Shown one piece after another: positions 4,438-37,600 of a stretch of DNA of 64,000 nucleotides. Source of the stretch: Amoebophrya sp. A120 (lineage: Eukaryota > Protista > Dinoflagellata); assembly GCA_905178155.1 (NCBI GenBank), contig CAJINV010000005.1, forward strand, positions 612,564 through 676,563, read 5' to 3'. Under the pieces are notes generated by a model. It searched no databases. It was not told where the DNA came from and saw only the letters and a program-made list of their open reading frames with translations. Within the stretch, counting starts at the first letter, position 1; every line of letters begins with the position of its first letter. The position numbers were made by a program, and so were the translations under genes.

Positions 4438-5677
4438 TCTGATCTTTTCGAATGCTGATATACTTGTTAATCAGAAATAAAATCACGAATCACCGTCTCG
4501 TTGCTGTCATTCCGTGTACGCTGTGCTGCGCGGAAAGGAGCGAATCTGCGAGACAAAAATCAAGCTCTTCTTGCAAATTATGGAAACGCATCAACAAAAC
4601 TCCACCCAGCTCACTGCTCCCCACTTTTGGTTCCCGCTGGTGCGCTTGCGCAGAGAAGGCCGCTTGAAGATGACACGTAAAATCACAATCAGCTAAGCAG
4701 TGGCAGTGGGCTCTTTGCATCACAATTTACTTCTTTCACGCAGAAAAAACACTCAGAATTCACCAGCATTTTTACTCTCGGCAGCTACTAACTTCTGTCG
4801 TTCTCAGGCGTTCTTTGTTTCCTCGGTATGGCACTTCACAACGACCTTTTTTCTGAGCAGTGCACACTCGTCACAGCACGTCAGACAAAGATTGATACAA
4901 CCGACAGGATCCAGAACATAAGCTTGTCGCACGACACGACACGCTGCCACAACTTCTATGTCATTCATAGGGGCGCTATCACTAAGCAACGATGACCACG
5001 AGAGGTAATTTGATATCGCTGGTTTGCCTTGGCATTCGATTTTTGTTTTTCGAAACAGGATGCATTTTTCTCTTCATCAAATTCAGTATCATCTTCAGCT
5101 CTTCTGCTGTTGAGCGCATCTTCATCATCAACGACCGAAAATTGAAACCTGAATTGTTTTCGTTGGTAAAAAGAAGTTCGAGTTCATAGTTATCTTTCTT
5201 TCGCCCTAAATCTGGAGGTTTTTTGCACTACTTTTCCAGATGTTGCGAACGGACTACAAAGGAAAAATATCGTGAAGCTCAAATAAATCTGCCATTGTTT
5301 GTAGTTCCCCCGAAACAGTAAACAGCAAGTTCTCCTTCTCGTCGTAAAACGGTAATGTTTATATCCTCAGTTTTCATCGCGTTCATTGTAAGTTACTTAA
5401 GCAAGGACGAGAGATTCGTCGGCGTTGTGCGGTGGCATTTGGTTAAATTGTGTAAAGATCACAAAAATTCATATAGGTGAAAAAGTCAGTGTAACATTTT
5501 TAGTGCTAATTGCAGCCCTGACAGTACTAAAAGTTTATATAGCAATCTGGCTTTGGCATAGAGGCAGTCATCAATTTCCTTTTTTCTTTAAGGGTTTTGT
5601 ATCAGGTTGACATAGCTTCTGTTGATAGATGGTGTTGCTTTTCATTTTCGTACAAGAAGTCGCACGGTGTTGCAGCT

Positions 5678-8187: not shown

Positions 8188-8861
8188 CTGATACAGTTTT
8201 AGATTCAGTGACTAGATTGTTGATCACATAAATTGCTTTTGATCAGAAAGATGGTTTGCAAAACCAAAACATCACACATCCATGCTCTACAAAGAAGCTT
8301 TATTCGAATCGAATCTTATCTAACTTCTATGCTTGCACAGTATGAGTTGTGTCGAATAAGTGTTGTATAATTGATGTACCTTGTAGATCTCTTGCTTCTT
8401 TGGGCTCAGGGTCGACAGCTGCCGCACATCCCAGTCTGCGTAGGGCGGACGCTCCGGGGACTGCTCCGCTGGGTACTCCGAGTAAGTCGCGACGGATCGA
8501 CAAGTATACCACGCTCAGAGGATGTGAGAATTTACTTACACAGTCACGACAAGGTTGCATATTTTGGAGGCATTCGCTTTCATCTGTATACAGGACTGCG
8601 AATCGCCTCGGGCGTCGTCATTTCATGACCATCATGACGCCGGGGTGATTCGAATGCGACATCAACTCTGTAAATGTTTATACATACATCAACTTTCTTG
8701 CCCTACGGCGTTTCACTGTACCGTATTGCATGGAGGCGATGCAATTCCACGTGCACAACCGCGGTACTGACCGCTTCTAGTACAGCACTAAGCGCATGAT
8801 TCTGCCTCACAAGCGAACCGTCTCTGCCTTGTCACTGCACAGGACATCATACATTATCACA

Positions 8862-10635
8862 TCAGCTGAGTGGGCGATAACTAGAGAGCGCTGGATCGGC
8901 GGAACGTGTGCGTCCGCGGGCAGATTCCGTGACCACCTGAGTAATTGGGATTTTTGGTGATATTAAGAGGACGAAATGCAAACGTAGTTCATCAATATTG
9001 TAGGGCTACACGAAACCAATTTTTGTTTTGAAGATGAACCATACAGAAAGAACATATATATTACCGGTTGCCGACTAATTGGGAACCCGTTTTTTGCGGT
9101 CGTGTCCATTCCGTACCCGCCACTGCCGTAGTCGCGATTCAGCTCCGCCCGGTCTTCCTGCAGCACCGGCACGCGCGCGTCGCGCCTTTTGTTCGCCGGA
9201 TTCGTGCCCCACTCGTCCAGGTACACCGATTTTTTGTCGTCCTTGGACTTGGTCATGAAGAGGTTCCCGGCGGATTTGGGGCGCATCAGCTCCCGGGGCT
9301 GGAAGGTGCCGTCCAGGTTGTCGTACCCCTCCAGCTTCGGGTACTGGTTCTCGTAAATCGGGACCGGCGGCCCGTAGCTCGCCTTGCCCAGATTGTACAT
9401 TTGGTGCAGGGAGGTGATGTTGGGCCGGTGCACCGGCCGGGGGGTTTCCATCTGGGTTCGCACCTCCGGGTTGTTCAACTGCAGATCGATCATGGTAGTC
9501 GTCACCGGGTTATGAACTGCAAAAGTATCGTATTCATACTCGTATAAATGCATTACAAATTTTCTCAGCATGAGAAAGAAAATTTGTAATGCGGATTTAC
9601 CTTAAGGAAGAGATTTGTAATGCATGATTGCAATACGAGTACGATACTTTAGCACAGGATACGGGTTGTGGTACGTGTTCTTGTTCGCGTTCTCGTCAAA
9701 GTTGGCAAATCTCGGGTCGTCCTTGTATAACAGTGCACAACTCCCCCTCCCCCTCATTTGTAATGCAAAATACCCAAGTCACCCTTTGCCTCTTCGCAAG
9801 TTCTGGCTGCCCAAATAGCATTATCCTCTTGTACAAATTTGTTATACAAAACCGGCAGTCTTGCTGATGCTTGTATTGCCGTTCATGCTATACAAATGAG
9901 GGGGAGGGGAGTTGTGCACTGTTATACCTTGTAGTACTCCTTCATGAACTCCTTGTTGTACTTGCTATGCGGGGGCGCGGCCCGTGACTGCAAGTGCGGT
10001 TCCTCGACCACAACTGCTGGGTGGCCACTGTTCATCATTCCTGTGCTGGTCCGCGACTTGTAGTGCCCAACACCCCCCTTGCCGGACAGGTCGGCGTGCT
10101 TGTTCTGCTCGGAGGTCGGCGATGGCGCCATACCGGGCGGCGTCAGCGGTGGGGTCCCGGGACGGTGCTGGACAGCAGAGCTACCGCCTCCGATCATAGC
10201 ACCAGAAGTTGATTTCGAGGAAGTGCTGACTCCTTTGCCGATCTCGACCTGCTGTTCTGCCGCTCCGGGAGAGGTGACCACGGGCAAAGTGTCGACTTCC
10301 ATAGATACGTCGCCGGTCGTGGTAGCAGCTCCCTTCTTCTGCACCATCTTCGGTCGCAACGGGGCCGTCACGGGCCGCTTCTTGTGGTAAGTCGGCGCGA
10401 ACACCGCGGTTCTTGGCGGCTGGTCTGTCGCGGTGTGGACGATCTCGCTGTTGTGCATGTGGCGCTGGGGCCACTTCTGGCCCCCGGAGGTAGAAGATGT
10501 GGTCATCGTTGCGGTGCGCGGCCGCTGCGCTCGTGCACCGGAGGCCGGAGTTCTCGCGGACGGCTGGGACCGTGCGGAAATGGTCACCGGGGCCGCGGAA
10601 AAAGGCCGCGGGTTCACAGAGGGATTCAGATTCAT
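8862..10635 (-). CDS. Hypothetical protein; 2 introners plus 1 GT-AG intron
   Basis: ORF 9922..10737 joins ORF 8963..9571 through the exon DDPRFANFDENANKNTYHNP after removing both elements; GT-AG intron 8937-9064 leads to a stop at 8862. Start could be 10635 or 10737. Confidence 0.7.
9511..9661. mobile_element. Introner family A (151 bp), TSD CGGGT
   Basis: CGGGT|TATGAACTGCAAAAGTATCGTA...TACGATACTTTAGCACAGGATA|CGGGT. Confidence 0.92.
9726..9926. mobile_element. Introner family C (201 bp), TSD CCTTG
   Basis: CCTTG|TATAACAGTGCACAACTCCCCCTCCCCCTCATTTGTA...TACAAATGAGGGGGAGGGGAGTTGTGCACTGTTATA|CCTTG; ~36-bp TIR. Confidence 0.93.
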
Positions 10636-10736
10636 CCTTTCTTTCGATATGGAGGGCTGGGTTCTCTCCTCACTTTCACAACCACCAGCCCATCGGAGAT
10701 AGCAAATCAATTTGACAGAAGTTTGTTGTTTCACCA

Positions 10737-10980
10737 AGCTTGCGAAAAGCTCAACAGACCAAAAAGCTCTGCCTACTGGTTTTCATTTTCGATATAATGG
10801 GAAAAGAAATGTAAACAGTCATCAAGTTTAGCCACAGTTTTTCATTTGTGGTGACACAAACCGCACTAACAATTGTCCTCCGACGCTCACGGTGAAATAC
10901 CTCTCTATATTGCTAGTCTGTGTTTTAATTCTCTCAGTTAGAATATCCTCAACACTGACGAAACGACGTTTGGCTCTCGA
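10737..10980. repeat. Upstream-region duplicate, copy 1 (copy 2 at ~12971-13222)
   Basis: AGCTTGCGAAAAGCTCA(A/C)CAGACC(A/G)AAAAGCTCTGCC(T/C)ACTGGT and AATTCTCTCAG...CGACGTTT blocks recur in the same order. Confidence 0.8.
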
Positions 10981-12834: not shown

Positions 12835-12970
12835 CGTTGTTCGCGTGCGTGCTCGTCGGGCATTCCCGTTGGTCTTGGAGACTGCAGGGGGACCGCGGAG
12901 CACGACGGCAGTTTGTTGACACCGCGGAGCGAATTCATTTTCCACAAGTTTCGTTGTTTTTTTCGAACCT

Positions 12971-13222
12971 AGCTTGCGAAAAGCTCACCAGACCGAAAAG
13001 CTCTGCCCACTGGTGGTTTTCACTTTGATACGAATTTTTAAGGGTGAGAGTCATTGATGTTTGCCAGAGTCTATCCTCCTTTGTGATGAAACAAAGCGCG
13101 CCACCAATTCTTTTCCTTTTCCGAAGATACTTTTGGCGAAGTACCTTTTCGCCTTGTTAGTTCGTGCTTCAATTCTCTCAGCCAAAATACCCTTAACCAC
13201 GACGATGCGACGTTTTTCTCTC
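12971..13222. repeat. Upstream-region duplicate, copy 2
   Basis: See 10737-10980. Confidence 0.8.
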
Positions 13223-14384: not shown

Positions 14385-15705
14385 CTACTGATGCGCGGCC
14401 GCGACCACTCCACCGAGCGTCGGACCCGGACGGGTGGTCAACACCTGCCTCGAAGTTGGCTTGAACGCCGACAAGGCGCCAAACGCAGGCAGCCGCGCGG
14501 CCGCGGCACTCCCTCCGCTGCCTCCGCCGGACGAGGCGCCAGTTGCGTAGGTGGCGGAGGCGCTCGTGGTTTTGAAAAGCCCCCTCTTCGTACTGCTGCC
14601 CGCCGGTATAATGTGCGTCGAGGAAATGTTCATTTTTTGCACGGCACTGGGAACTACAGAGGAAGCCATCGACTGCTGCAGAAACTGCGCCGTAGGGCTG
14701 GAGCCACTGTTCTTGGCAGCTGCTCCTGTAGAAGTTGTGCCTGTTGTACAACTACTCGCCACCGTGGAGGTAATAATTCCCCCGGAAGTTGTAGATGAAA
14801 AGTCGTTGCTGTAGGTCGGCTTCCTGCCTGCCTTCCCCAGGCTGGACTGCGTCCGCGGCGGCGGCGACATCGCGTCCTCGGGGCCCTCCTCCTCCACGGG
14901 ACTGGGAGCGGCGCGCGGAACGTTGTGCTTCTTCCGCATGCGCACGGCCTCGGGCACACCGAGGGTTTGATGTTGATGCTGCTTCGCCAGCATTTGGTCC
15001 TTGATGGTAGCGGGACGAGGAGAGATTTTTACAGCATTGTGCTGCTGCTGCGCAAATTCCGCATTTGATGCTTGATTTCCGCTGTTACCGAACGCAAACA
15101 CCGGGGCTGCAGGGTTCGCGCTGCCGTGCTGCTGCGAGGAACTATGTGTCACCACTGGTGCAGCAGCCCCTGCTGCTGTTCTGACGGGAACTGCCACTCC
15201 TGGAGCAGCCAGACGACTCCCACTACTAGAAGCAGATGCCGCTCCCGCCCCGGCGCCGAGGCTCAAGCGGGTCAGCGGAGTTGCGAGGTGTGGTCCGGCT
15301 CCGGAACCACCGGATTTTGTTGCTGCGCTCGATGAAGAGGATACGACACTCGTCACCTTCGCACTGATGCTGGTCGCGCTGGAAGTGTTTGGGGCCAACA
15401 GTAGAGGTCGCGCGGACGGCAGCGCGGTCGGGCCGAGGGTCGGCGGTGGTGGGGCAGGCACGGTTTGCAGGCCGCTGATCCGCCTCGGCTTCAGGGACGC
15501 GTTGCGGAGGGGTGGGCCACCAGCACGGGTAGATTTTTCCTGTTGGGGCAAATGCTGCTGCTGAAAGGTTCTGAACGTCGGAACGGTCGCGTCGCGCTGC
15601 CTCGGTGGGACCATCACGGAAAAAGTACCCGAAATCCGCGGCCGTACCGACCGGGAACGAAACCCAAGAAGCCCCGCTCGCTGGACCTCGTGCTCGTCTT
15701 CAACC
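14385..15705 (-). CDS. Low-complexity S/A/G/P-rich exon; possibly the 3' part of the gene starting at 19227
   Basis: 410-aa ORF that stays open upstream to a CAG acceptor near 15706; I could not resolve its linkage to upstream exons. Confidence 0.55.
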
Positions 15706-16206
15706 TGATGCAGGATAATTTATTTTCTGCACGTTATCGTTATATATTCGCATGGGTTTGTAACGTTGCGTGTTCCTGTTTGTTGTTGATGCTGCACGAA
15801 ACGAAGAACCTGCTGTGGTCGTTTACCACGATGTCGTCACGACCGTTGCTCCTTTTCATGTGACAAAGAAAGCGATAAGTAACCTCCTTTCTACCGGGCT
15901 CAGAATCGCGGGCGGCGCGCGGGGCTCGGGCTGTCGAAGTTCCTTCCCGCGAATCATGGGCGTCCAGAAACCAGGCCGGTCTGCGAGTAAGCCTCTGGTC
16001 CCCGGGTGGACCGAGTAGGACGTTTGTGGCACCTACGTATGGAGAACGGAACGTTGATATTAAGAGAGTCATGGAAATCTTCTCGAATGAACTGACGCCT
16101 AGTTTCTCGAAACCGATGCCTACGTTACTTCGAATAAAAAAAAAGGACTGCAACAGCAGCGCATGAAAACATCAAGTAACGCCAGCACAATACGTGTACA
16201 AATTAC

Positions 16207-19200
16207 TTGCAGCTGCTGCTTGGTCGACTGGTCCGCCCCACTCCCCTTCGCTGCAATCATTTCACTGTTCTGCTGTTTTTTCGGCGGCTGAATGACGAAG
16301 GGCGCGACGACTTTCGGGACCGAAGCGGAAACTGTGCCTGTGTTGGTACCGCCCGCAGCCTTGCTTCCGGATGAACCTCCAGGGTTGGTGTTGACAATTT
16401 TTGCCGTGGAGCTGGAATTTGGCGGCGGGGACAGCAGCGACCTTTTCTTGTTCTGCACCAAGCTCGCCTCGTCGACATGAAGGCTGGACCTCGCGGGGAC
16501 TACCACCGCATTACAACTCTGCTCGGTGTTTGTTCCAGCAGCAGCCGCCTGGTCCTGCTGTTCAAACGGCGAGGACCGACTGCTGCTCGACTGCGACCCG
16601 GGCAAAACGGGCACTTCCATCTGCAAGAGCGAGGTTGCTGGCTGGAAAGAAGAAGAGCCGCTTCCTATTACAATGAAAAATGCCCCCATCCCCAAAGTTG
16701 CAATAATTTGTCATGCGAAGTTTCCAAATGAAAACTTTTTGTCATGCATGAAAGGAGTGTGAATCTCTCTAATGCAGAGTCTAGGCGTATACAGCATCGC
16801 TTGCATGACAAGGGCCGCTCTTGCTGGGATCTTTTGCAATACAAGTTTTTGCTATTCCCGATTGAAGATCTGTGATGCTGGTAGATGTAAGAGGGCGAGT
16901 GTTTCATTTGGAAAGGTTTGCAATACAAATGCTCCAAAGTTCAAGTTCTGCGGTGGGGGCACTTTTCATTGTCATACTTCCGTTGCGCTGGATCAGCGTT
17001 TGGTTCATTCCCAGCAGCGTGTTGGTCGGGGACAAACGACTCGACAAAGAGTTTTGGTTTTGCTGCTGCTGTTGCACCACCTCTTCGACGTGTTCTTGTT
17101 CGTCTGGTATGCTTTCCGAGCCGGGCAAAATGGTCCGTGTCGACGTGATTCCGTTATAATCCCCAAGGAGACTAGCACTCGATGTCATGGTCATGGAGGG
17201 TGGTCGACTGGCTAATATCTCGCCAGCGATATTAGAAGTGGTCCCGTTCGAATGGTTGTTGTTATTTGATGTTCCGTGCAGGTTCATCGCAGAATTGTTA
17301 CTGGTAGAGCTTGATTTTGACAAAACCATCTCGGAGCTGGGCTCGGTGCCGGAAGAAATCGTCTTCTGCATCTTCTGAAGGGGAACGAAGCCGTGCTTCG
17401 AACTGGTTTTCTGCTGCTGCTGCACTCTCAACATAGAGGAAGAGTTGTCTGGTGCTGGGTCGACCGACACTGAAGACGACTCCGAGTGGTGACCTCCGGA
17501 GGAAGAAAGCGACAAAATCCGGCTCATTCCGGAGGCTTGTCTAGCGCCAGTCGCAACTACTCCATGCTGCAGCAATTTAGGATGTCTATTTTTAGTACTG
17601 TGCTTGTTGTTTCCTGGCTTGCTCGTGTTGAAAAAGCTGGTTTGATGTGCAGGAGCACCTCCTCCTATTGGTCTACTACTGCTCGAGGAGGAACTATGGC
17701 GCTCTCAAGTGTTACATTCTCAACTGTTACATGATTTGTCATGCAAAACTACAATCATCATCATCATCATGTAGTGGACACCCGCACCCAGCGCCACAGG
17801 TCAAGGATCCCCTCCCCGGGGGGGTGGGCGAGGAAGCACTTTCGGCGACCTCAACATACAAAAGCCGAGCGCTACCACGGCAAGTCGCCCCAATAAAAGT
17901 GCCAACCAGTCGGGAGCTACCCACCACACCTGATCAGTACAGCCCGGCCAGCTAGCCGAGCGCGACAGCCCAACATACAGAACGATCCAGGACCCGACCC
18001 ATTTTACGCCTTAAGTTTTTGTTCTCACGGAAGAGACGACGTACCCCTTTGGGCTACTTAAGGGGCGAGACTCTCCCTTAAGCCGCAACCCCACCCGGAC
18101 AGGGGAGGCTGGACCATTTGCGCCTTACCTGCGGCACGGACGAAAAAGGCAAGTGCCGCGAACCGGAGATGTCAAACCATTGGCCAGTTGTTTGTCACTG
18201 CTGACTGGCAACCCACCTGGGGCACAGCGACAACTTAACGGCTTAGTTTCTGCGTGGCGGTCAGAGTGCAACTCCTTGACTTATTCTGCAACAGAAGCAA
18301 AGGGTGGGAGGGGGGACGGGGGGCGTAAGCCGGAGTCGCGACGGAGCTTACCTTGAGCTTACCTTGAGCCTACAATCAGAATCTACACAATCAAGCTTCT
18401 TAGCATGACAAATTCTTTGAGGGCCAAACAGGCTCAGACTCTGTGCCAAATCTGTCATGAAAGACGCGCAAGGTCACCCCGTTCACTTTTTCCATTCTTG
18501 CATCACAAATTCATGTACATGTATATGTAACAGTTGAGAATATGACAGTTGAGAACGCCATAGGAACTGCTGCTGTGTTCTACGCCAGTCAAAACACTTG
18601 TTGGTGGGTTGAGCAACCGGGCTATGAAAGCCTCAGGTTGGAAATCCTCAAAGTGGAAATAATTTGTAATGCAAAAAAACGACCCCAGTTGAAGCGGCAT
18701 TTGTAGTCGGCGCATGACAAAATTCCCGGGCCTTTAAAGCATGTCTGTCATGCAGGTTAAGGCAAAGGGGTGCCCTTCTGTCGTGCTCGGCAGCACTCCA
18801 ATTCTTCACCCCTAGCAGGACAATGGTTGGCTTCCATTATGTCCTCTGCAATACAGTCTTTTTTGCCTTGCATATCATGCATCACAAATTGTTTCCATTT
18901 TGAGGATTTCCATTCTGAGGCTGTCATACGAGCACCGACGCTCGTAGTGCCACCTGCTCCACCCACTCCGCCGTATGCCCCGCCGAGCTGCATGCCAACG
19001 CGGCCCTCATAGTACAGGTTGCCCCGGGATTTTGGGGGCGAGGTGAAATACCGCGACTTCAGGTGCTTCGCAGGGACTACCTGGTGCTGTTCCTCTGAGG
19101 AGTTGTTGGGGTTAGTCGCGGAAGTAGAACCACCTATAGCACCAGCATTTTTATCCTTCGACGTCGCGTGAACCGTGCGGGTTCTACGTCGCTTCGCTTG

Positions 19201-19227
19201 GTTGCGCATCGCCTTTCGGAGAACCAT
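16207..19227 (-). CDS. Low-complexity hypothetical protein, 5' part, interrupted by 3 introners
   Basis: MVLRKAMRNQ...SVGAR|LLNPPT...HSSSS|SSSSSRPIGG...QRNGS|GSSSFQP reads continuously after removing the elements at 18623, 17695 and 16666; GT donor near 16206. Confidence 0.7.
16666..16976. mobile_element. Introner family D (311 bp), TSD CTTCC
   Basis: CTTCC|TATTACAATGAAAAATGCCCCCA...TGGGGGCACTTTTCATTGTCATA|CTTCC. Confidence 0.9.
17695..18562. mobile_element. Introner family E (868 bp including a nested insertion), TSD GGAAC
   Basis: GGAAC|TATGGCGCTCTCAAGTGTTACATTCTCAACTGTTACAT...ATGTAACAGTTGAGAATATGACAGTTGAGAACGCCATA|GGAAC. Confidence 0.9.
17758..18369 (-). mobile_element. SINE-like retroposed insertion nested in introner E
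   Basis: 9-bp direct repeat CTACAATCA at 17749-17757 and 18370-18378; (TCA)5 tail at the left end; GC-rich non-coding body. Confidence 0.65.
18623..18928. mobile_element. Introner, B-related (306 bp), TSD CGGGC/CGAGC
   Basis: TATGAAAGCCTCAGGTTGGAAATCCTCAAA...TTTGAGGATTTCCATTCTGAGGCTGTCATA. Confidence 0.88.
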
Positions 19228-19406
19228 CGCAAACTCCAACCAGCTTTGGATTACCTGGATATAAATTTTCTGCAATCGGATCATGCGGACGCTTATGTAC
19301 ACGACCTTTATAGTTACATCCTTATTCTGGTTTTAGCTCATATACTAGCTTATGATGTCAGAAGTAAAAATGTGTTTTTGAACAATTTATCAGAGTGAGC
19401 TGGGTT

Positions 19407-22400
19407 TTACGATTTGGACTCATGGGCTCTCGCCTCATATGACCATCGTGAGAAACTTCGCTTTTTCTCATCACTTTTTGGATCATACGGAAGATACGTG
19501 GGGTCGTGTTTTACCGTCGGTAAATCACAATGACAACACAACAAGTGTAAGTCTCGTGCTTTGCATATGAGTAACTTTAGACAAGATGAACAACCTGAAT
19601 TTGAAAAAATCATCCTCGTCATATATACCTCGGTGCCACAGTTTTCGCGGAGCGTCAGAAAGCTACACGCGTTAGCCATGGAGGAATCCTCGAAGAGCGA
19701 TTGCATCACTAGGCACAGCGGATCCTTGGGTCTGTGAGATCATGATTTGAGGATGAACAATTTGTACTATGTATTGTGCGTACGCTTGTGAACAACTGAC
19801 GTCACACTTATGGTTCTCACTTCAATCCACTGAAAAATCCATACTTCCTTCAAGATTAAGTACTCGTGCCGTTCGTTTTTCGCCATGTCGTCGAGCATCC
19901 TTCGCAGCGCTGCATGCGACTCTCGCACGGCATCGACGGCCGTTCCGGAGGCGTCCGGGTCGTCTGCGTATCAAATGTAAAAATGTCTGGGTCTGGAAGA
20001 TTAGAACTTGTCATGCTAAATCTAAATGATGCAAAAATCTGTGTTGCGTGAGTGCCAAAAGCTGTCCGCTTTTGACCAAGTTGAGAGGGAGTTTCTCACG
20101 CAGGAAAGGCATGATAGAGACCTCAAAGAATCTGTCATGCTAGGTCTCGCATTCCAGACCTCCTGGCCCATGCAAAACGTGCATGACAAGTCTCAGAATC
20201 TTCCAGACCCAGACATTTTTGCAGTTGATACTGCGGCTAGGTCGACGAAGGACAGCGTGAACCGGTGCGGCTTTGACGATGATGAGATCTTCGGGGGTTC
20301 TATCCTGAGTAAAAACGTCCCCACACCAGAGTCAGGATGGGGATTTTGCAACACAAACCTAGCGGTTTTGGGAGTCACGCATGACAAATTGCACTCCGCA
20401 GTGTAGTGCTGGTTAGCAAGTGCAGCTGCATCACAGATTCATCTGCTCATCCTGTTCACAGCATCACAAATTCCAGAACACGATTGGAAAGCACTCTCAT
20501 GGGGATGCGCATTACAAGTCTTCCTGTCTTTGCAAATCTGCATTACAACTCTGGCGTGGGTACGTTTTTACTCAGGATAGGTCCTTCTGTATTGTTTGTC
20601 TCTCCTACGTCGCTGGGCTTCATTACACTTGACGGTGGATCTTCGATGTTCACCAGAAAAACGCAGTGGCCCCTACTGGTCTCCGTACCGCGCTCGAAAT
20701 GCCGGTTCTGGTCGCCGAAGAAAAGTTATCGCTTTGGTACAAAATAACTGTGTGTTCCAGATCGCTTTGCGGATACAAAAAGCCGAATGTTGATGCAGCA
20801 GCGTCCCTCTTGAATGAGGCGCCGTTGTGCGATGTGTGAAATAAAGCTGCTGCGGTTTACACAGCCGCTCCGTTTGCGATCTACTGTGTCCGAGACTTTC
20901 AATTTTGTCAACATAATTTCGAGAGAAGCTACGACTTCTTTATGTAGTTCCCCTTAGTGTAGTTGCCTTCATCGATTGCTGCAAAACATAAAGATTTGCT
21001 TGTTTCAGTACACAGCAAGGAGGATCAGAAACACTACGTTGTGTTGCAGTATCGGATAACAGCCGGTGGTAGGCTATGGAAGCGTCAGGATTGAAATCGT
21101 CAAAGTTGAAATAGTTTGTGATGCATAAAATGCATGGCCCGAGGTACGTGTGTTGCAGAGCAGGCAAGTGATGCCGATTGTAAGCCTGTTTGGGGTCGTT
21201 AGAGCTCGAGTTGCTAAAATAGCATGAGAAAATCGGTCTTCGTTGCCTAAACCGCATGAAAAACTGGATTTAGGGATCACCAAAATTTGTCATGCGCCAC
21301 TTGGCAACTGGGTTCCAACTGGCATCCATTTTATGCATGACAAATCACTTCAACTTTGTCGATTTCAATCCTGACGCTTTCATATAGGCATCGGATTCGT
21401 CGCGAACCTCCTTCTCCGCCAGATCCAAGACTATCCTGCGCAAAAGTATCGCACTCGTAGTCGTACTAATTGCAATATATGCATGACAAATCCTGTTCTC
21501 AAGGTAAAACAGCATGACAAGTTCCAGTTGTCATGCTGAGCAAATTTGTAATGCCACTACTAGCACAAGAATACTTTTGCTTTCCATAAAGACCACCTCG
21601 CCGCCATTCCGCAGGATCACTTCGCACCCGACCCCGCTGCCTCCGTCCCCGGCGTCGGTACTAGTGGGAGTGGACGAGTTTTGGTGCAGCAACAAGTCGA
21701 CGATTTTCTGTTTGTACACCTCGAAAAAGCAAACCGTGACTATCCTGAGTAAAAACGTACCCACAGAGTCAGGATGGGGATTTTGCAACACAAGCCTAGG
21801 AGTTTTGTGAGTCACGCATGACAAGTTGCACTATGCAGCGTAGTGCAGGTTAGCAAGTGCAGCCGCATCACAGAATCATCTGCTCATCCTGTTCACAGCA
21901 TCACAAATCCCAAAACACGATTGGAAATGGCTCCCATGGGGATGCGCATTACAAGTCTTCCTGTCTTTGCAAATCTGCATTACAACTCTGGTGTGGGGAC
22001 GTTTTTACACAGGATAGTGATCCGCTGGGACTTTGTCCTTTCGTCCTGGAACAGCTTGGTTAGCGTGCGCGGAATCAGCCCGCGCAACGCGAAGGAGCTG
22101 CTGCCCCCGGTGAGCAAAAACGTCTTCCCCGCAGACTTGGGCCCGTAGCCGAAGAGAAACACGGATTTTTTCGCTTCAATGGCCGGATCGAGGAACCTCT
22201 TATCGAATTCGGTGAAGCGATCGTCTTGCTTCGTATTCGGAGGCATGATACCATCGAACTCGTAGGGTTTGCCGGTACCTGTGTCGTGTTTTTTTCTTTT
22301 ATCTACTTTATTTTTCTACACAACTTTTATTGATTTGCCATGCCACTTCTAAACCTTGACGGTCTGCTCCATGGTTATCGGGTCCTTGCATTCCGAGTAT

Positions 22401-22543
22401 GACAACACAAATTTTTGCTTTACTGATATTGTAGTACTGTCCTCCGCCGGATTCTGGGTGAAGTAAACGGTGCTGGCATCATGGTAAAGAAAATCGGGCG
22501 ACTGGTCGCAATTCAACACGCACCACGTGCTGTTCTGCGTCAT
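19407..22543 (-). CDS. Divergent kinesin motor-domain protein (kinesin-9/KIF6-KIF9-like) with 6 introners plus GT-AG introns
   Basis: Reassembled motifs in kinesin order: YEFDGI, FGYGPKSAGKT (P-loop), RGLIPR, FFEVYKQKIVDLL, LFFGDQNR, TSRGHCVF (switch I), SFVDLAADD (switch II). 3' exon junctions are uncertain. Confidence 0.85.
19969..20230. mobile_element. Introner family F (262 bp), TSD CTGCG
   Basis: TATCAAATGTAAAAATGTCTGGGTCTGGAAG...CTTCCAGACCCAGACATTTTTGCAGTTGATA. Confidence 0.93.
20301..20579. mobile_element. Introner family G (279 bp), TSD GGTTC/GGTCC
   Basis: TATCCTGAGTAAAAACGTCCCCACACCAGAG...CTCTGGCGTGGGTACGTTTTTACTCAGGATA. Confidence 0.92.
20727..21058. other. Fossil introner / non-canonical intron (332 bp)
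   Basis: TATC...GATA termini and a decayed TSD AAAGT/ACAGC; removing 337 bp yields the kinesin motif DAYHRLFFGDQNR. Confidence 0.7.
21075..21384. mobile_element. Introner family B (310 bp), TSD TAGGC
   Basis: TATGGAAGCGTCAGGATTGAAATCG...CGATTTCAATCCTGACGCTTTCATA. Confidence 0.93.
21432..21588. mobile_element. Introner family A, reverse orientation (157 bp), TSD AAGAC
   Basis: TATCCTGCGCAAAAGTAT...ATACTTTTGCTTTCCATA. Confidence 0.92.
21741..22016. mobile_element. Introner family G (276 bp), TSD GTGAC/GTGAT
   Basis: Near-copy of 20301-20579. Confidence 0.92.
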
Positions 22544-23399
22544 CTTTTATATTCAAACGAAAGGATGTCCCTCCAGCCGGCGGACGGCTGCTCTGGTTCG
22601 GGTCAGCGTCTCTCAGAAGTAGATCAATCGTAGCGGCTCTCCTCGTATGTGTGATTCCAAATAAGAGGCGGCTGTCTTCCTAATCATTGGGATTTCACAT
22701 TTGCGGCGATTTTCTTTGGACTCGCATTTCAAAAATCATTTGCCTGATTCATAGAAAATAAAGAAGTGGAGGTAGAAGTACAAGAAGCACACACGTCTAT
22801 TATTCCCAAGTTACAACTTTTGGACTCAAGAAACACGTTCCAGCACAGGAAGAGACGTGGAAATATCACCCCGTCTGTTTGACCTCTCTCACAGTCCTGT
22901 AGTGGTTGGTCTACACGGGGCTATCGCTATCTTCATCTCAAACGACGACGGGATAATTATACTGGAAGTGACGCGAGTCCTCATTGTACAGATACTACAA
23001 CACGCACACACAAGAATCAGAAGCATCCACGGAGCACCGATTGAGGCATGGACGGACACAAACAGGAGGGAACTGTAGCGGTAAACGCGAGTACACCTCC
23101 GCTGATGTTTTTGTTTTCCTTTTTTTTAAGAACAAAAACTTGTTGACTGGGTGGAAGAAGTAGATTATATATGTCCGCAAGCGACGATCGGCTTCTCGGA
23201 TGCGAATTCTCGCATCAAGGAGGATCTGTGTACAACTTCTTAGACAGGCAGCGTCGTGGTTCTGTAGGTGTTCCATCAATGGTACTGGTAAAAGTGCATG
23301 GGGCATGTAGCAATAAGTACTTACGGATAATATACTGAATGCGAGCGCCAGCTCTACCAGAAAGGCGGGACCGCAATAAAGTACTGGAAAATTTCTCTT

Positions 23400-26300
23400 T
23401 CACTGCAGATCGATCCGAATGCAAGAGTCCGCGGAGAAAACGTAGGGCACCGCCCCCACCTGGCTCGCTACCAGGCCGAACGCTGAGCTGGAGGCGATCA
23501 CCGCGACAGCCTTACTGAGCACCTGGAAGTCCAGCCACCCGTCGGAGACGCCCCGGATTTCGTCGAGCTTCGTGCGAGATGGATCGCCTCGGATGCGCTG
23601 GTCTTGTTCTTGCAAATGATTATTTCCTCCTTCTCCCAAATCTGCTGCACCTTCGGTAGTAGTTGTCCCAGCACTTGTAGTAGTTTTGTTGTTATTGAAC
23701 TGGGACAGGTGCGTTCGCGATTTCAGATTTCCATTGTGGACGATCTTTCCCTGCTGGATCCACGAGCGGATCTGCGGTACTTCCGAGAGCACCGCCGCGT
23801 TGTCCGTTGCCAAGTACCACTTCACCGTCACGCGCGGCCGTACTGGTATGGACGCTGTGCTGTTTTTGGTGGTACTACTACTAGCAGCTGACCCGTGGTC
23901 CTCCAGAAGATTCAACAGCTTCGAATGGCTTGCTAGGCTGTTCTTCTCGTTTTTCATCTCCAACTCTAGCACTCGTTCCACCTCTGCCGCGCAGCCCAGC
24001 ATCCGGACGAGCATATCGGTGCCATGGCGGATATCCAGGTCCTCGTTGACCTGGCCGAACCCCGCCACCAGATCGCCGGCACGGTAGTGAATCCCGATAA
24101 AGTACTCCCGGAACACGTCGAGACTGTTGGAGGTCAGGTCGTTTTGATCTCTTACTTCCTGAGGTGCATCTAGGTCGTCTACTTCTTTCATCGGCTGCTG
24201 TTTCTCTGCGACGTCAACATGCTGTTTCATCTCTTGTTCAATTCCTTCTTGTTCTTCCCCCTCCCACCGCTCCGCCAATTGCAAGTAGTGTTGCTGCGCG
24301 GCTAGCTGCACCGCCTCCTGATTCAGCTCGTCGGTATCGAAAGGCACGTAGGGATTCCGCAGAAACAGCATCCGCTTGAGCATGTGCAGGGAAGGTTGGA
24401 ACAAATACTCAAACATGTAGTGCATCAAATACGGCATCCGCACCCACTCTGTTGTGATCACGCGCTTCTCGTAGAATAAGTAGCGGCACTATCCAGGAAA
24501 ATAAAACACCAATCCCCAATATTTGTTTCTTGGATGACAAAAACACAAATGAAAGGCTTTGCTAGCGCATGGTATTGCATGACATCAAATTATTGGATAG
24601 GTATGCGTGTTTTTTCCTGGATAGGTACACTTGCCCGAAGAAGGACTTCTTGTTCGTGTAAATCAACAGCACTTCCTCGTCGGATTCGAGAAATTCTCGG
24701 AAATATTTCTGTTTGAACTCGTCGTAATCCCAGAGCAGGTAGGCCTTTTTCCGCAACAACCGCAATCTCTCCCGCTTCTCGTCGGTAACCACCCAATCGA
24801 CGTTCTTCTCCCCGGTGAAGGGGTCGCGCGCGGGCACCAGGAAATTCGAGAGCGCGATCGGGTCCTATGACAGTGCACAACTCCCCCTCCCCCTCCCCGC
24901 CCGCGCCCTCATTTGTGTTGCTGTTGCATTAACAGCAACACAAGCGCTGGCAAAGATGCAGCTTTTGCATGACAGATTCCTAGAGGGTTAAAGTGCTGTT
25001 TTGGATTCAGGAATCTGTCATGCAAACAGTGCTAACAGGCAAAGGATGGACGTGGAATTGCAATTTTGCATGACAAATGAGGGGGAGGGGGAGTTGTGCA
25101 CTCTCATAGGTCCGGCATGTCGATGAGAAACTCGCGGCCCAGGACAATGGCGAGCAAAAAGCTGACGAAAATGCCGTTCCACCGGTCCCCGTGGCCGCCA
25201 CAGGCGTAGGCCCCCGCGTGGCAACCGAACACCACGTATTTCTTTCTTTTCGTGAGAGAAGGGTCGTTCTTTCGGTTCTTCTTTCCCTCCTCGTCCCGCA
25301 ACCTCCCCCAAGCCTCTTCCAGTTCCCGTTTGAACAGAAATTTTCCGGCTTCCAAATCCCACGTCAGGTGGTCCTTCGGCTCCTCCACCAAATACTTTTT
25401 GTTCAGGTCGGACCGCAATATCCTGAGTAAAAACGTCCCCGCCCCAGAGTCAAGATGGGGATTTTGCAACACAAACCTCGAGGTTTTGGGAGCCACGCAT
25501 GACATAAACAGACTGTGCTGCTGCGGGAATGGCATTGTGTTTCGGGTGAGTTGATCAACCCAAAGACGCCGCCACCCCGGGCCCAACGGACCTGGCACTC
25601 CAAACAATAAACAACACACACACACACACGCCAACATATTTGTTGGACCTTTCAACCCAGCACCCGAGCACAATATACAGCAACGGGACCAGAACTGGAG
25701 CAGTCCAAATTACTTCACTATTTGGCAGAGCACAGTCCATCAGCGCATTGGAAGCACAGACAGATGTTTATCCTTGCCAGTTGCAGGCTGTAGTGTAATG
25801 CGGCTTAGCAAGGGGAGCCGGATAACAAATCCATCTCCTTATCCTGTTTACAGCATTACAAGTTCCAAAATACAATGGGAAATCAAATGCCTCTTATGGG
25901 GATGCGCATTAAAAATGCTCTCGTGCTTGCAGATCTGCATGACAACTCTGGGGTGGGGATGTTTTTACACGGGATACGCAAACCAGAATTCTTCCCGACC
26001 ACGATCGGTGGCAGAATTTGCGAGTCGTGGAGCGCAGTATTGCTGGCCGACGAGACCCAGGCCGCTTTCGTCTCGCCGTCCGCGATATGGATTGCAAAAA
26101 TGTCTGGGTCTGGAGGAATGCAGGAGTCTGTCATGGAGATTTTGCATGACCCATGAGGTCTGTGATGCATGCCCTAGCATCAGAGATTTTGCGAGGGCTT
26201 TCTGATGCTCATACCGCATGAGAAATGCCCTCTCCGCGTAGCACAAGTTACACCTCTTTTGCTGTTCATGCAATACAGTTTTTATGTAGATTGCAAAAGT

Positions 26301-31661: not shown

Positions 31662-34600
31662 TCACTGGTATTCATACCCCGTGAGCGATCGCAGGGTGCG
31701 CTGCGCCGGACGCCGGTACGACTGGCTCGGCGAGTTGTGTCCGTGCGATTTTGACAAATTTTCTCCGTTGTTTGCCCCTGTATCCTCGTCGGAAGAGGAA
31801 GTGGGAGATTGGTTTATGTCACCTCGCCTGTTCATAGTCATGTAATCCCCAAAAGGATCACTAATGCTGGAGGAGGTCACAGGCGGAATCATTGACATAG
31901 AACGCACAGCGTTCGTGGCCGGAAAGACCTCTCCTGAGGATGATGAACTTTGCTGTCGATGACTCTCTGCAGCTGCGGCAGCTGCGCCGGCATCTGCAAG
32001 CCGCCGCAACTGTTGTGCCGCCGGCGCAGCACTCTGTGCAATTTCTTCTACTTGGCCAACAACAGGATTAGTATTGTACCCCAGATTGCCTGTGGTCATT
32101 GTTCCGACGTTTGCAGCAGGGAGAGTAGAGCCCTCCAGTTGAAGTTGGCCTTGCTGGTGAAGTTGTTGGCCCTGCTGCTGACCACCTGTTCCAAGGCTGC
32201 CTTGTTGCACCTGCTGCTGCATTAGTGCGTGTAATTTTCGATTTTCCTCCAACAATTGCTGCACCAAAAGCTGCTGGCGCATCGCATCATTCTCTTGCTT
32301 CTTCCTCGCGTTTTCTTGGATCAGTCTCTGCAACGTCTCTGGGGACGAGCTCGGATCATGGTTGAGAAGCTGCGTGTTTGTTGTTCCCGTCGCAAATGAA
32401 GCCGTCGAGTGCGCCGGCTGCTGTTGCTGTGGTGCAATAACGTGACTACTATTACCTCCGAGGAGCGCTAGCCCTCCACCCCCACCGACCGCACTGCTGT
32501 TTGTGGACGGTGGCAGCTGCTGTGAACCTCCTCCTACGCTGTGCCCTTGCTGCTGCAGCAAGTGGCTCAGGCAACTGATTCCGAGAGTGGTTTGGTGCTG
32601 CTGTTGTTGCTGTGGTTGATGTCCAACATGTCCACCTCCACCTGGCAGCTGCAGCAGAGGCTGTCCCCCTCCACCAACGCCAGACCACGTGGCGGACCCG
32701 GTGCTCAACCCGCTGAGGGACGCGGTAGACAGAAGAGGCGGGCATGCGTTAGGCGTTTGCAGATTCAGATTCTGCTGGAGCTGAAGCTGGTTCAGAGTGA
32801 CATTGTTGATACTGCTAGTACTAGAGACCACTCCACTGCTGGAAAATGTATGTGCACGATCATGTTGTGGTTGTGCTGTCGCACCAGCTACGGTACTGTG
32901 GAGGACAATCTCGCCGGAGGTACTGCTCGTCGAATTACCACTGTGCATCTCCGAGTGCCGCTGCCGAACCAAGGGATGGCCGCCAATCTGTAGGCTGTCG
33001 CTAAACAGGTTATTTGTAGTTGGATTCACTGCTGCACCCGATGATCCCAATAGTCCCTGCTGCAGGTTGATAGTACTCTGATGAGAATCTGTCACAACTC
33101 CCGCCGGATTTGCTGGGTTAGAAGCTTCTGCACCCACGAGATCATGAAACGCGCCAGTGTTGGTCGTGGTTGGTTGAACATGAACACCAGAAGGAGGATG
33201 GTTGACATTAAGAGCTGCTGGCCCAACAGCAGGCCCCCCGCCTCCCACATTTGAGGCAGCCCCGCCGCTGGTGTTGATGAGTGGCTGCTGGTTCTGCTGC
33301 TGAAACATCTGCGCGACAAGCGTTTGCAGTCCATTGTTTGCACCCGTGTAGTTCATCAACGTCGACCCAGCGACGTCATGCGCGGACACAGCACCGCTCT
33401 GAACACGATGTTGGGCCGCGGCCACTGCACCCGACGGGTGACTCGTTGTGTTTGGCTGTTGCAGTGGCGTTTGCGGATAGAGGTTGCTTGTATTTGCCGA
33501 TGCCGGCGCGCCGTGGTTCATGCTGCGATGTAGTTGATCGGTAGTGAAGATGTTGCCACTCAAATTTCCGCACCCACTGCCTGCGTGTGTCGTGTAGTCA
33601 GCGGTGGGCATGCTCAACAGCAGTGGACTTGGACTTGATGTGGATGTAGTTCCAAGAATGTTAGTACTACCTCCCGGGGCGGTGGGAGTCTGTGTCTGCT
33701 GTTGCTGCTGCTGCAGGTGGCCCCCGGTTATCAGGTTCATATTATGGCTGCTAGTATTATGTCCACCACCGACTGCAATAACTCCAGACGATGAACCGAG
33801 CTGCTGCATTTCCGCGGTATTAAACTGGCCACTGGCCGTTCCCAGCATCCCCCCAGCCCAGCTACCCGAGCCTGAGTGCGTCCGTGCACCGAGGGAGGAG
33901 GGGTGCTGTGTGGTGGCTGTCTCCCCATGGATAGAGGAAGGCGGGACGTGTTGGACGTAATTGTCATTGTTTCCGCCCATAATCTTGCGGGCCAGATCAT
34001 GAACATGATGATGCTGGCTGTCTGTTGTAGTCATTGACTGAGACTGTTGCAATGGTGCCCCCGGCTGGACCTTAGGATCCCCCGTCGTGTTATTTGCTTG
34101 TTGTTCCAAGGGAATCAGCTGCTCCTGATGCATCTGCTGGTGCCCAACGTGGTCCACCTGCGCAACTACAGATGAGCCCGATCCAGACCCAGCTTGATGC
34201 TGCTGGTGTTGCAGTTGCACTGCTGGCCCCCCGCCACCACCGCCAAACAGCAAAGAACCAACCACCGACCCTGATGCAGCAGAAGAACCCCCCGCGGAGG
34301 TTCCGAAAGCTGGGGGAGCAGACAACACAGGTTGGAAATGGCCTTGGCCGCTAGCGTTGCTTACAATCGTACTTGCTCCGCCGACAGAATACTTGCCCGG
34401 GGTTGCTTGCTGTTCTTGCTGGTGAATAAACATCGTGGGAGTTGCTCCTGCAGGCCCGCCAGGAGCCGACGAAATTTGTATTTGACTGTTAATATCCGGC
34501 TTACTAGTATCACGACCTCCCCCTGCTCCATCTGACAGATAGTGGTTGTTCAGGGAACTGGAACTCATTCCAGATGAGCCGACGTAATTATTGCTGTAGC

Positions 34601-37600
34601 TGTTGATATTATTCGTTCCAACGTCAGCACTCGATGAGCCCGCCGTCGTTGCGGTCACCTGGTGATGCGAAACATCACGACCGGGTTGCCCATTTTCACT
34701 TCGGTGTGGAAAAGTGCTGGATGTTGAACTGCTGCTGTTATTATTACGAACGAGTTGTTGTGAATTATGGCTACTTGTTCCACCACTCGAATTGTTCTGG
34801 TTCTGAAACACGTTATGATGCAGCAGACCCCCCCGACCGTAATGGATGTTCTTTCCTTTTTTTGCACCAGCAACAACACCTGGAGGGTTGTTGTAAATGT
34901 TCATCATGTTGGAACTTGTGTCCAGCATCCCATTTTTCCCCTTCTCCTCGTCTCCGCCAAGGTTCATTCCGGTTTGCCAGCACTGCGAAGTTAGCTCCTC
35001 AATGACCCGCCGCTCCTCTCGCCGTTGCCGCTCTTTGTCTGCATGCTCCTTGTCAAGTCGGGGACCTTTCTTTCCAGCCGGAGGGGGCGCAGATGGGAAA
35101 GGTAGCACACCTTCGACGTCTCCAGCAAAGGTACTAGCACCGAAATGACTTCCACCATCGCCTGCTCTCGCGGAAGCTTTAGATATCGTGTTGAACTTAC
35201 TGTATTTCGCAGAAGCGGGATCTTGTATATTTCCAGCATGCAGGTTGCAGGCGGCCATGTTGATCGTCATATTGTGGTCACCCTTGCCTCTTTTCCCAAC
35301 GCCCTTGTGAACAAGATGTGAGCAGTCATGTTCGTCATCATATCGCGACAGCGGCTCTCCTCCTCCCGGTGGACCACGTGGTCCTTCTCCACCGTCCCAG
35401 GCACTATGGTTGTTGCTGTAAGAGCTCACCGCCGCGCGATCATGCTCACTGCCTTGATCTTGAAAAGGGCGTTGCTGCTGGTAATCCAATTTGTGTGACG
35501 TTGAGGCATGCACACTTGCGCCCCAGTAGTTGCTGGATGAAGACCAAGAATTATCACCGTTGTACATATTCACTCTATTACCGTAGCTCGTGTTCTCAAC
35601 AACGTCGTTGGAATGCGCTCGACGAAATAAGCCAGTTGCACCTTTTCCGCCTTTTTGCTGAGAGAAGTGTGGCGGGTCATGGTGCTGATGTGTCTGAGGA
35701 AAATCTTCTTGATTTTGATTGTGGAGGTGATCAAACGGTGGAAACTGAACAGCTTGTTGAGCACCTTTATTCCCGTTGTATTCATCCGAAGTTGCCGCCG
35801 AGGACTTCGACGATCCAACGGGATCCAGCACTTGATGCTCCCCTCTGCTGTGCGGCCATGATGACGACGTCGAGAACAAGTAATCGTTGTTTATTCCCTC
35901 TTCAATGTTCATTTTACCGACACCCGCCACGTCATCCAGCGCGGCAGTGCGCTGCTGCAGGTCTTCTTCAGAACCGCCCGGTAACATGGAGCCCGGAAAA
36001 TTTCTGTGACCAAGGACTTGGTCCAGCGAATTGTGCATCCTGGCGCCGCCGCGCTCGCGCCCAACACGCCTCCAGGCACACTGCTGGGGCCCGCCTCCCC
36101 AGAAGTCGCCTTTACCATTATTTTTGTTTCGATTAATACAACCTCGAGAGACGGTTGTGCTGTTTTTTGAGTTGTAACCACCTTTCGTTCGACCGGGCGG
36201 GAGGTGAAAGTTGGACATCAATTCTCCCGGGTTGCTGTACAATGATTCCAGCACATAATCAAACGGCGCGGCTCCCGGAACCGGCAGTCGTGGTGGGGCT
36301 GGCGGTGGAGGTGGTGGTCCTCCGGACGGTCCTGTCGTCCTGGCCGACGTCGAAAATCCTGCTGCCTCCTGCTCTTGGTGCTTCTCCTGCTTCGAGGGAG
36401 AAGGACGAGAAAGGTCACTCGCATTGACATTGTGTTGAAGATCATTTTGATTCTGCTGCTGGCCCCCAGTCTGGACAACAACAGCATTTCCCCCGTTATT
36501 TCTACTGTTGCCACGATGTTGTCCCTGCTTGTTAAACTGGTAGTTTTCTGTGGCTTGTTTACTCCTCGAAGACCTGTTGCCGCCTCCTGGGTGGGTGTTC
36601 GTCGTGGCTCCTGCTGTCGTTGTATACTGCGTCAATCTTCCCGCAATCGAATGAAGCATGGGCGCGTCGGAAGCGCCTTGATGGAAATGGTGCTGTGGAG
36701 TAGATGATATAGCCGACGACCCCAAAGCACCGGTTGCATTCGCTGTCGCGATTCCTGTCGTGCCTCCGTGGGACGTAACTTTCTGGGAAGTCGTCACGCG
36801 GTGGTCTTGCTGGTTTTTATGCTTGAGGTTGTTCTGACCAGCTGCATTTTGCTGTTGATGTTGATGTGATGAAGTACTATCATTCTTGATCTTGTTCCCG
36901 GCAGCCCCCAAAGTAGCACCAGCACCAGCACCTCCCCCAATGCCCCCGCCGCGTTGCGGCCCTCCGTTGTTTTTTTCGTACAGCTGCGCGTCCTGCAGTA
37001 GCAGTTCCTCCTGCAAAAGTAAAATCTCCTCCAGCACGTCCCGGCGGTCCAAAGTGGACATCATAGCGTGCGTTTCGGCCAGAAACGTTGGCGGCTGCAG
37101 CTGCACGAGCGCCGCGGCGGTCTGCTGCATTTGCTGCAGGTCTTGCGGAGCGGTGGCTGGTACTTCTACTTGTTGGGTGGTGTTATAATTTGCGTCTAGG
37201 GTTTGGATTTTGTTCTGGCTCTTCTTGCTTCCGGCTGGATCGCCTCGCGCTTTCTCCCGGTTAACATCCTTCTGGTCCTGGGTGGCTGAGTCTCGTAGTT
37301 GTTCCCTTCGCTGCCACTGCTCCATGGCCACCGAGCTGCTCATAATCGCGGTCCAAACCTGCGGTGGGAGTTTCCGTCTCAGCTCGTTCGCCGTCATGTG
37401 AATAGCAGCGTAGACTCTCTGGAACCGCATGCCCAGGAACCGCTTCACGCAGGAATGTAAGTTCGTCTGGTCCCGGGTCATCATGCCCTTCGTGTTGATT
37501 TTCTTCTTGTTGTTCTCCGTGACAATGTCGTAACTCTGATCCCGGGGAACCTGCTTCACCAAGCCAGACCGGCGGAAAGTCGTAGCGTTCTGCTTGTCCT

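What the first reader, a model, noticed from the sequence alone, without database searches (positions are those of the whole stretch)
20722..21074. Fossil introner keeping only TATC...GATA ends, next to an ~11-nt micro-exon
Seen: 332 bp with no family similarity, no long TIR and a 3/5 TSD match (AAAGT/ACAGC, both differences synonymous). Removing exactly length+5 is needed to build HRLFFGDQNR. Only 16 bp separate it from the next element. Inference: this shows the minimal signal that survives selection, and that old introners persist as non-canonical introns.
Basis: partly seen in the sequence, partly recalled or inferred. Interest (0 to 1): 0.7.

Follow-up and report, generated by a model that had tools for sequence, protein, structure and literature searches.

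The report
Worn jumping intron pins splice cut
A 337-base intron without the standard splice signals, likely the worn remnant of a jumping intron, is cut cleanly out of transcript assemblies of a motor-protein gene in a marine parasite; this kind of intron is already described there, but its worn flanks help narrow down where the cut likely falls.

Summary
The window is from Amoebophrya sp. A120. Transcript-like contigs from four runs of one sample lack exactly this 337-nt segment and the 315-nt neighbour and keep the micro-exon. No GT/GC-AG cut is possible. The public gene model already contains the junction, and non-canonical introns with TAT starts are described for this strain (PMC7789003).

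It is likely an aged introner: single-copy in a DNA run, target duplication 3/5, no family motif. 'Only TATC...GATA survives' is overstated: the arms still match at 24 of 36 positions (p about 0.005 to 0.02 in most scorings, not significant in one). One case cannot show a minimal signal.

The useful part is that the decayed duplication limits the cut. Across 11 RNA-supported elements plus one annotation-based case, the only shared cut gives N-TAT...ATA-NNNN. That puts T and A at donor +2/+3, as in 8 of 8 canonical donors here. The paper calls these borders variable or unknown. Each bound rests on one element. This scan noted similar signal-less transposon introns in two other dinoflagellate genomes (unchecked).

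The parts
20723..21059 (-). Non-canonical intron, 337 nt, drawn in the preferred register (starts TTAT, ends GATA plus 4 nt); the cut can slide to 20722-21058 or 20721-21057
   Evidence: RNA-type contigs X1-X4; equivalent cuts listed
20727..21058 (.). Decayed introner body, 332 bp, TATC...GATA ends, single-copy, GC 0.44, none of the family subterminal GCATnASA motif
21021..21058 (-). 5' arm of the residual inverted repeat (24 of 36 aligned bases match the other arm)
   Evidence: significance depends on the scoring used
20727..20763 (-). 3' arm of the residual inverted repeat
   Evidence: the predicted fold pairs parts of the two arms
21059..21063 (-). Upstream copy of the 5-bp target duplication (GCTGT on the transcript strand); positions 1-4 are kept in the mRNA
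20722..20726 (-). Downstream copy of the target duplication (ACTTT); positions 1-4 are intronic
21060..21070 (-). Micro-exon, 11 nt if one cut rule holds for both flanking introns (10-17 nt over all equivalent cuts); encodes part of YHRL in the kinesin motor domain
21075..21384 (.). Young multi-copy introner (310 bp, perfect TAGGC duplication, 24/25 TIR) forming the intron on the other side of the micro-exon
14385..22543 (-). Host gene: kinesin-motor-domain protein, 1327 aa, 14 introns (9 TAT...ATA type, 5 GT-AG); identical to annotated GSA120T00018787001 / CAD7949223.1
63323..63530 (-). Comparator: decayed introner with a 1/5 duplication; the annotated protein needs length+5 removal at offset -1, -2 or -3, which excludes offset 0
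   Evidence: annotation, not reads
24490..24623 (-). Comparator: short-TIR (12 nt) element, duplication 4/5, removed as length+5 with the upstream copy kept

Best explanation
This is a 337-nt intron without GT-AG ends that transcript-like contigs lack exactly, and it is likely an old introner insertion still removed by the route used for young introners in this genome: predicted end-pairing of the RNA plus a likely fixed cut one base before TAT and four bases after ATA. Shown: exact removal, length+5, upstream duplication copy kept, single copy, no GT/GC-AG option. Inferred, step by step: (1) A small terminal-inverted-repeat element inserted into a kinesin exon and duplicated 5 bp. (2) Its interior, family motifs and most of its arms then decayed, while TAT/ATA and a weak end-pairing stem remained (terminal 4 bp predicted paired, P=0.89). 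(3) The 5' cut falls at N|N-TAT, so the intron begins N-U-A. This matches positions +2/+3 of the canonical GUA donors here and points to the U2-type spliceosome with a relaxed first base. (4) The 3' cut needs no AG and would be set by distance from the end of the stem. (5) A younger introner inserted 11 nt upstream (order inferred from its perfect repeats) and left a micro-exon, tolerated because each intron would be defined by its own ends. My odds: aged introner 0.8; fixed -1 register 0.6; spliceosomal chemistry 0.6 (untested).
For: Joint seen in X1-X4. Retention would put stops in frame. The model equals P0001, and homologue P0002 has no indel here. All 11 RNA-supported non-GT-AG introns I could resolve are TAT...ATA, length+5, and 0 of 8 GT-AG introns have that geometry. 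In 5 of 5 RNA-supported elements with a mismatched duplication (positions 1-4) the mRNA keeps the upstream base. The focal intron allows offsets +1/0/-1; the ten analysed share only 0/-1; element 63323 allows -1/-2/-3 (prediction noted beforehand, result). 8 of 8 canonical donors start GTA. Table S4 of PMC7789003 lists nine predominant non-canonical motifs per strain, all with T second. Residual arms.
Against: All RNA support comes from assembled contigs of one sample whose RNA status is the tool's guess; the three raw-read RNA runs laid (X9-X11) had next to no coverage of the gene. The register rests on one element for each bound. The bound that excludes offset 0 comes from an annotated protein, not reads, and there offset -2 gives GA..AG, a motif known in dinoflagellates that the protein cannot tell apart from -1. 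PMC7789003 describes the borders as variable, 1-5 nt from the repeat. Table S4 motifs depend on how the aligner places ambiguous joints, and 8 of the 9 A120 motifs also fit a -4 register. Folding support is weak: z -1.42, with 14 of 150 interior shuffles pairing the ends as well. Several functional elements have low predicted terminal pairing (0.11-0.26). Arm similarity vanishes under strict scoring. No homology to any family was found, so introner ancestry rests on geometry alone. No lariat or chemistry was tested.
Confidence: 0.7

Rival explanations
1. It is an aged introner, but the cut is not fixed: each intron is cut somewhere within a few bases of the hairpin ends, as the original paper describes, and the shared -1 register is a coincidence of few informative cases.
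For: PMC7789003 Fig. 3 legend and Fig. S23 legend call the sites variable, 1-5 nt from the repeat. At 63323 a GA..AG cut at -2 fits the protein equally well. Only 6 of the 12 elements have an informative mismatch.
Against: All 12 share -1. 5 of 5 RNA-supported mismatches resolve to the upstream copy (about 0.05 if the six registers were equally likely, worked out by hand). The apparent variability is expected from perfect duplications, which allow 6-8 equivalent cuts.
Confidence: 0.25
2. The intron is removed by a non-spliceosomal, structure-guided route like that proposed for euglenid nonconventional introns; TAT/ATA is only the transposon end that closes the stem.
For: No GT or AG at any register. 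U1 snRNA was not detected in this strain (PMC7789003). The ends are predicted to pair. Euglenid introns with TIRs and TSD-like repeats leave as circles (PMC11282704 section 6).
Against: The cut is asymmetric in the direction of transcription (1 nt before, 4 nt after the stem) and lands T and A on canonical donor positions. Nearly all spliceosomal proteins are present. Terminal pairing is predicted weak in several working elements.
Confidence: 0.2
3. It was never an introner: it is a non-canonical intron of other origin (for example a drifted older intron) that acquired TAT/ATA ends because the splicing system selects for them.
For: No similarity to any of 25 window elements, no family motif, no other copy in DNA run X5, and only a 3/5 duplication.
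Against: Removal is exactly length+5, the arms keep residual inverted similarity, and the paper finds conserved-position introns to be 98.6% canonical. The window also shows intermediate decay states (8505-8879, 24490-24623, 63323-63530).
Confidence: 0.12
4. The missing segment is an artefact of reverse-transcriptase skipping across a hairpin, or the contigs are intron-less DNA.
For: A hairpin plus direct repeat is the classic substrate for template switching (own knowledge). The runs are only guessed to be RNA.
Against: Here only 2 nt of homology exist at the joint. The same contigs also lack the GT-AG introns, the intergenic bin 22678-23011 has depth 0 in X1/X2, and DNA run X5 holds the segment.
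Confidence: 0.03

Closest known systems
Non-canonical introns and introner elements (IEs) of Amoebophrya sp. A120 (Farhat et al. 2021, PMC7789003; read: abstract, sections 10, 11, 12, 16, 25, passages, supplement parts 2-3 as text; figures not seen)
   Same: Same organism and gene set; non-GT-AG ends; TAT start; 5-bp direct repeat; predicted hairpin. The paper counts 24,976 unrelated 'singleton' elements in A120, and the junction is already in its gene model.
   Different: This copy fails the paper's IE definition (exact IR 4 nt, or 6 with flanks, not 8-20; broken direct repeat; not repeated). The paper's text leaves the border position variable or unknown, while the decayed repeats here point to one register.
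Fungal introner-like elements that degenerate into regular introns (PMC3609843; abstract only)
   Same: Multi-copy structured introns decay into unique introns.
   Different: There the end state is a regular spliceosomal intron; here it stays non-GT-AG.
Fritillaria borealis non-canonical MITE-derived introns (via review PMC11282704 section 6; passages of PMC13326754)
   Same: TIR/TSD-bearing introns without GT-AG, thought to be removed by an adapted U2 spliceosome.
   Different: Those have dominant AG-AC/AG-AT ends and a conserved U1. Here the first and last dinucleotides are free and U1 was not detected.
Euglenid nonconventional introns (via review PMC11282704 section 6)
   Same: End-pairing TIRs, TSD-like repeats, non-canonical junctions.
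   Different: Different motifs (CAG/CTG) and excised as circles. The excised form was not tested here.

Membership tests
Amoebophrya non-canonical intron (NCI) | RNA-supported intron whose ends are not GT-AG | tested here: met
   (contigs, one sample); no GT/GC..AG among the equivalent cuts
Amoebophrya introner element (IE, Farhat 2021) | Exact inverted repeat of 8-20 nt at the intron ends | tested here: not met
   exact repeat is 4 nt inside the element, 6 nt counting flanks; residual 24/36 only
Amoebophrya introner element (IE, Farhat 2021) | Direct repeat of 3-5 nt at the exon/intron borders | tested here: inconclusive
   3 of 5 match but not contiguous; removal is exactly length+5 as in intact elements
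Amoebophrya introner element (IE, Farhat 2021) | Repeated in the genome (member of a family) | tested here: not met
   single-copy depth in DNA run X5; no match in the window; diverged relatives elsewhere could not be searched, as no genome is held
Amoebophrya introner element (IE, Farhat 2021) | A120-type end: TAT triplet, about seven free bases, then a run of at least three A | tested here: inconclusive
   TAT at both ends; A-rich stretch present but displaced by about 3-4 nt (alignment, read by eye)
Amoebophrya introner element (IE, Farhat 2021) | Predicted hairpin joining the intron ends | tested here: inconclusive
   terminal 4 bp P=0.89, but 14 of 150 shuffles reach it; z -1.42
Canonical U2 GT-AG intron | GT or GC donor with AG acceptor | tested here: not met
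Spliceosomal intron (any) | Lariat with a branch point; dependence on snRNPs | not testable with these tools
   contigs cannot show lariats
Euglenid-type nonconventional intron | Excised as a full-length circle, without a lariat | not testable with these tools
   no raw-read coverage of the gene

The most novel reading that the evidence does not exclude
Amoebophrya A120's tens of thousands of 'variable-border' introns obey one fixed rule, N-TAT...ATA-NNNN. A U1-less spliceosome reads only U+2/A+3 of the donor and measures an AG-free acceptor four bases from the transposon end. Fossil introners like this one, whose duplications have decayed, let the rule be read from existing genome and RNA data.
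Probability: 0.4. Interest if true: 0.72.

Novelty: new member of a known kind. Interest (0 to 1): 0.42.

Why it matters
As a single intron it is ordinary for this genome: about 65% of A120 introns are non-canonical, and this junction is already in the public gene model. It matters as a tool. In young introners the perfect 5-bp duplication hides the real cut, which is probably why the splice sites were reported as variable. Decayed copies break that ambiguity. If the -1 register holds genome-wide, the open question of how Amoebophrya splices without GT-AG or detectable U1 becomes a concrete, testable model. The case also argues against reverse-transcriptase skipping as the source of these junctions, because the cut stays exact where the direct repeat is gone.

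Tried and rejected
No run on record as RNA was listed as a holder; X1-X4 are RNA by guess. The raw-read RNA runs X9-X11 gave next to no coverage of the gene, which is no evidence either way.
A metagenome scan for relatives of the kinesin exon found 0 of 440 pattern matches confirmed, so no empty-site or sister-strain comparison was possible.
Two searches for the protein of the gene at 672-4437, meant to test whether an element lacking its terminal ATA (4200-4334) is spliced, found nothing. That test stays open.
Rfam gave one chance-level hit (E 0.52).
A sequence-only scan for other fossils is unusable: 43 chance pairs. One attractive candidate, 60884-61060, overlaps what reads as coding sequence after a GT-AG intron (read by eye) and was rejected.
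The GT-AG intron 19255-19628 has TAT/ATA near its ends but would be length+6 and has no arm match, so it was treated as canonical.
The synonymous-change argument was rejected as uninformative.
Joint tables were truncated (15 of 30 shown; 15 shown and 297 hidden), so intron counts cover only the joints I could resolve.
Literature searches showed no paper stating a fixed register for Amoebophrya. The images of Fig. 3, Fig. 4 and Figs. S19-S25 of PMC7789003 and the supplements of PMC12130899 were not seen and may bear on this.

Full report
Setting. The locus lies in a minus-strand kinesin-motor gene (Pfam Kinesin, E 3e-23). An exon query returned a 100% identical protein named Amoebophrya sp. A120 (GSA120T00018787001). 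The window holds at least 28 TAT...ATA elements besides the focal one, most with long inverted ends and 5-bp duplications. This matches the introner elements described for this strain in PMC7789003.

Observation. The element is 20727-21058 (332 bp, TATC...GATA), with flanks matching 3/5 and 16 bp to the next element. Contigs of X1 and X2 join 20722 to bases 21060-21069 and then to 21385; X3 and X4 show the same. All four are one sample, and their RNA status is the tool's guess. They behave as RNA: they also lack the GT-AG introns, have zero depth in an intergenic bin (X1, X2), and the DNA-like run X5 holds the segment. The intron lengths that my model had for this gene agree with the joints; the model used record offsets, so this is only partly independent. 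The full 14-intron model translates to P0001 exactly. An MMETSP homologue has the same stretch without an indel. Equivalent cuts give AT..TT, TA..TT or TT..TT, never GT/GC..AG.

Chance. The sequence pattern alone is weak: 381 chance TATN..NATA pairs of 200-500 nt lie outside elements, and 43 of them have a duplication of at least 3/5. At an RNA-defined junction, the chance of these ends is about 3e-4 for TAT/ATA and 8e-5 with the fourth pair. All 11 non-GT-AG introns I could resolve from the two lays have TAT...ATA and length+5, and none of the 8 GT-AG introns has it. The joint tables were truncated, so these are not all joints in the region.

Is it a fossil? For: one contig at depth 28 in X5, against tens of thousands in the adjacent bins. 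No match to 25 window elements. None of the GCATnASA motif that occurs 1-5 times in 26 of 28 elements (the motif was picked by eye from the window's repeats). The duplication is decayed. Against reading a weak TIR as age: the multi-copy element 21432-21588 scores as low (18 vs 20). A more diverged family elsewhere could not be excluded.

Is only TATC...GATA left? Not quite. The arms align at 24 of 36 bases. 5 of 1000 interior shuffles reached the score. Among 381 chance pairs, 3, 2, 9 and 0 reached it in four scorings and 119 in the strictest. I chose the first scoring after seeing the alignment by eye. The predicted fold closes a terminal stem that extends two pairs into the mismatched duplication copies. 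Terminal pairing is 0.89, but 14 of 150 shuffles match it and the overall z is -1.42. The fourth base pairs in only 19 of 28 elements, so the shared signal is TAT/ATA. One case cannot show selection. The two synonymous differences are real but uninformative: the downstream copy is mostly intronic, and two of three other mismatches in this gene would change the residue (by hand).

What the decay reveals. Perfect duplications allow 6-8 equivalent cuts, and the paper leaves the border unknown. This intron allows only offsets +1, 0 and -1 relative to TAT, the tightest upstream limit in the window. The ten elements share only 0 and -1, and 24490-24623 agrees. To separate these I noted a prediction for element 63323-63530, whose duplication differs at position 5. 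Its annotated protein P0003 is reproduced only by length+5 removal at -1, -2 or -3. The annotation was built from transcript alignments, but I did not see reads there. The single shared register over 12 elements is -1: N-TAT...ATA-NNNN. In it the focal intron is 20723-21059 and the micro-exon is 21060-21070, 11 nt. T and A then sit at donor +2/+3, as in 8 of 8 canonical donors, all GTA. The first base is free (G 11, T 7, C 6, A 4 of 28), and the last two bases are AG in only 2 of 28. Table S4 of the paper lists T second in all 18 predominant non-canonical motifs of both strains, which fits but depends on aligner placement. Caveats: each bound rests on one element, -2 at 63323 would be GA..AG, and a fixed rule is assumed rather than shown.

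Mechanism. Most likely an inverted-repeat element inserted and duplicated 5 bp, then decayed, and is still removed by an adapted U2-type spliceosome. That spliceosome would read N-U-A at the donor and place an AG-free acceptor four bases past the paired end. Removal and geometry are shown; ancestry, register and chemistry are inferred. The 11-nt exon is the shortest of 11 close inter-element exons in the window (the others are 33-104 nt), consistent with each intron being defined by its own ends. Rivals are a variable register, a euglenid-like non-spliceosomal route, a non-transposon origin and an artefact.

Comparison and novelty. It is a member of the Amoebophrya non-canonical intron class and works like an introner element, but it fails that paper's IE definition on repeat length and copy number. 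Decay of introners into unique introns is described in fungi (PMC3609843, abstract). Passages of PMC12130899, PMC11282704, PMC11453091 and PMC13326754 did not state a fixed register for Amoebophrya, and searches listed no paper that appears to. Figure images and some supplements were not seen. Two earlier notes of this scan report signal-less transposon introns in other dinoflagellates (unchecked). Verdict: real, of a known kind and already annotated, with a modest but testable lead on the splice rule. Interest 0.42.

Noticed in passing
window 4200-4334: An introner whose last 9 bases (transcript direction) appear replaced by a copy of the 9 exon bases upstream, so its true end lacks ATA. An internal ATA plus 5 gives an in-frame join, and so does removing the whole insert; the two differ by 15 nt. 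A natural test of whether ATA is required. Two protein searches found nothing.
   Followed up: partly
window 63323-63530: Decayed introner with a 1/5 duplication and a 13-nt TIR; the annotated protein excludes a cut exactly at TAT. It may have gained a GA..AG option.
   Followed up: yes
window 24490-24623: Short (134 bp) element with a 12-nt TIR and a 4/5 duplication, removed as length+5 in X1; an intermediate decay state.
   Followed up: partly
window 8505-8879: 375-bp element with a worn TIR of about 30 nt, a 4/5 duplication and no family motif; its junction was not among the joints shown.
   Followed up: no
window 20727-20781: The element's left end seems to carry an imperfect internal repeat of its own first ~20 bases, 33 bp downstream (seen by eye).
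   Followed up: no
window 17695-18562: An 868-bp introner whose interior (17902-18353) matches a separate RNA-type contig at about 97%, so related copies are transcribed or retained elsewhere; it may carry a captured or nested piece.
   Followed up: no
window 19969-20053: In raw-read run X9, about 200 reads carry only the first 85 nt of this introner family between unrelated flanks: a truncated element kept in an abundant transcript from another locus.
   Followed up: no
window 5677-6800: An intergenic-looking stretch bounded by inverted AAAAATGTCTGCAGC-type ends near 5690 and 6790, with GC-rich internal inverted repeats; possibly a larger transposon related to one introner family.
   Followed up: no
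window 58900-60500: A GC-rich island (0.58-0.67) with long open frames on both strands, unlike its neighbours; possibly a mobile element.
   Followed up: no
window 10733-10780 and 12967-13014: A 48-nt direct repeat (92%) near the 5' ends of two neighbouring minus-strand transcripts.
   Followed up: no
window 31662-39005: A 2447-codon open frame on the minus strand without any introner.
   Followed up: no
window 60700-61900: A small gene with GT-AG introns that looks like a glyoxalase-domain protein (label recalled, not searched).
   Followed up: no
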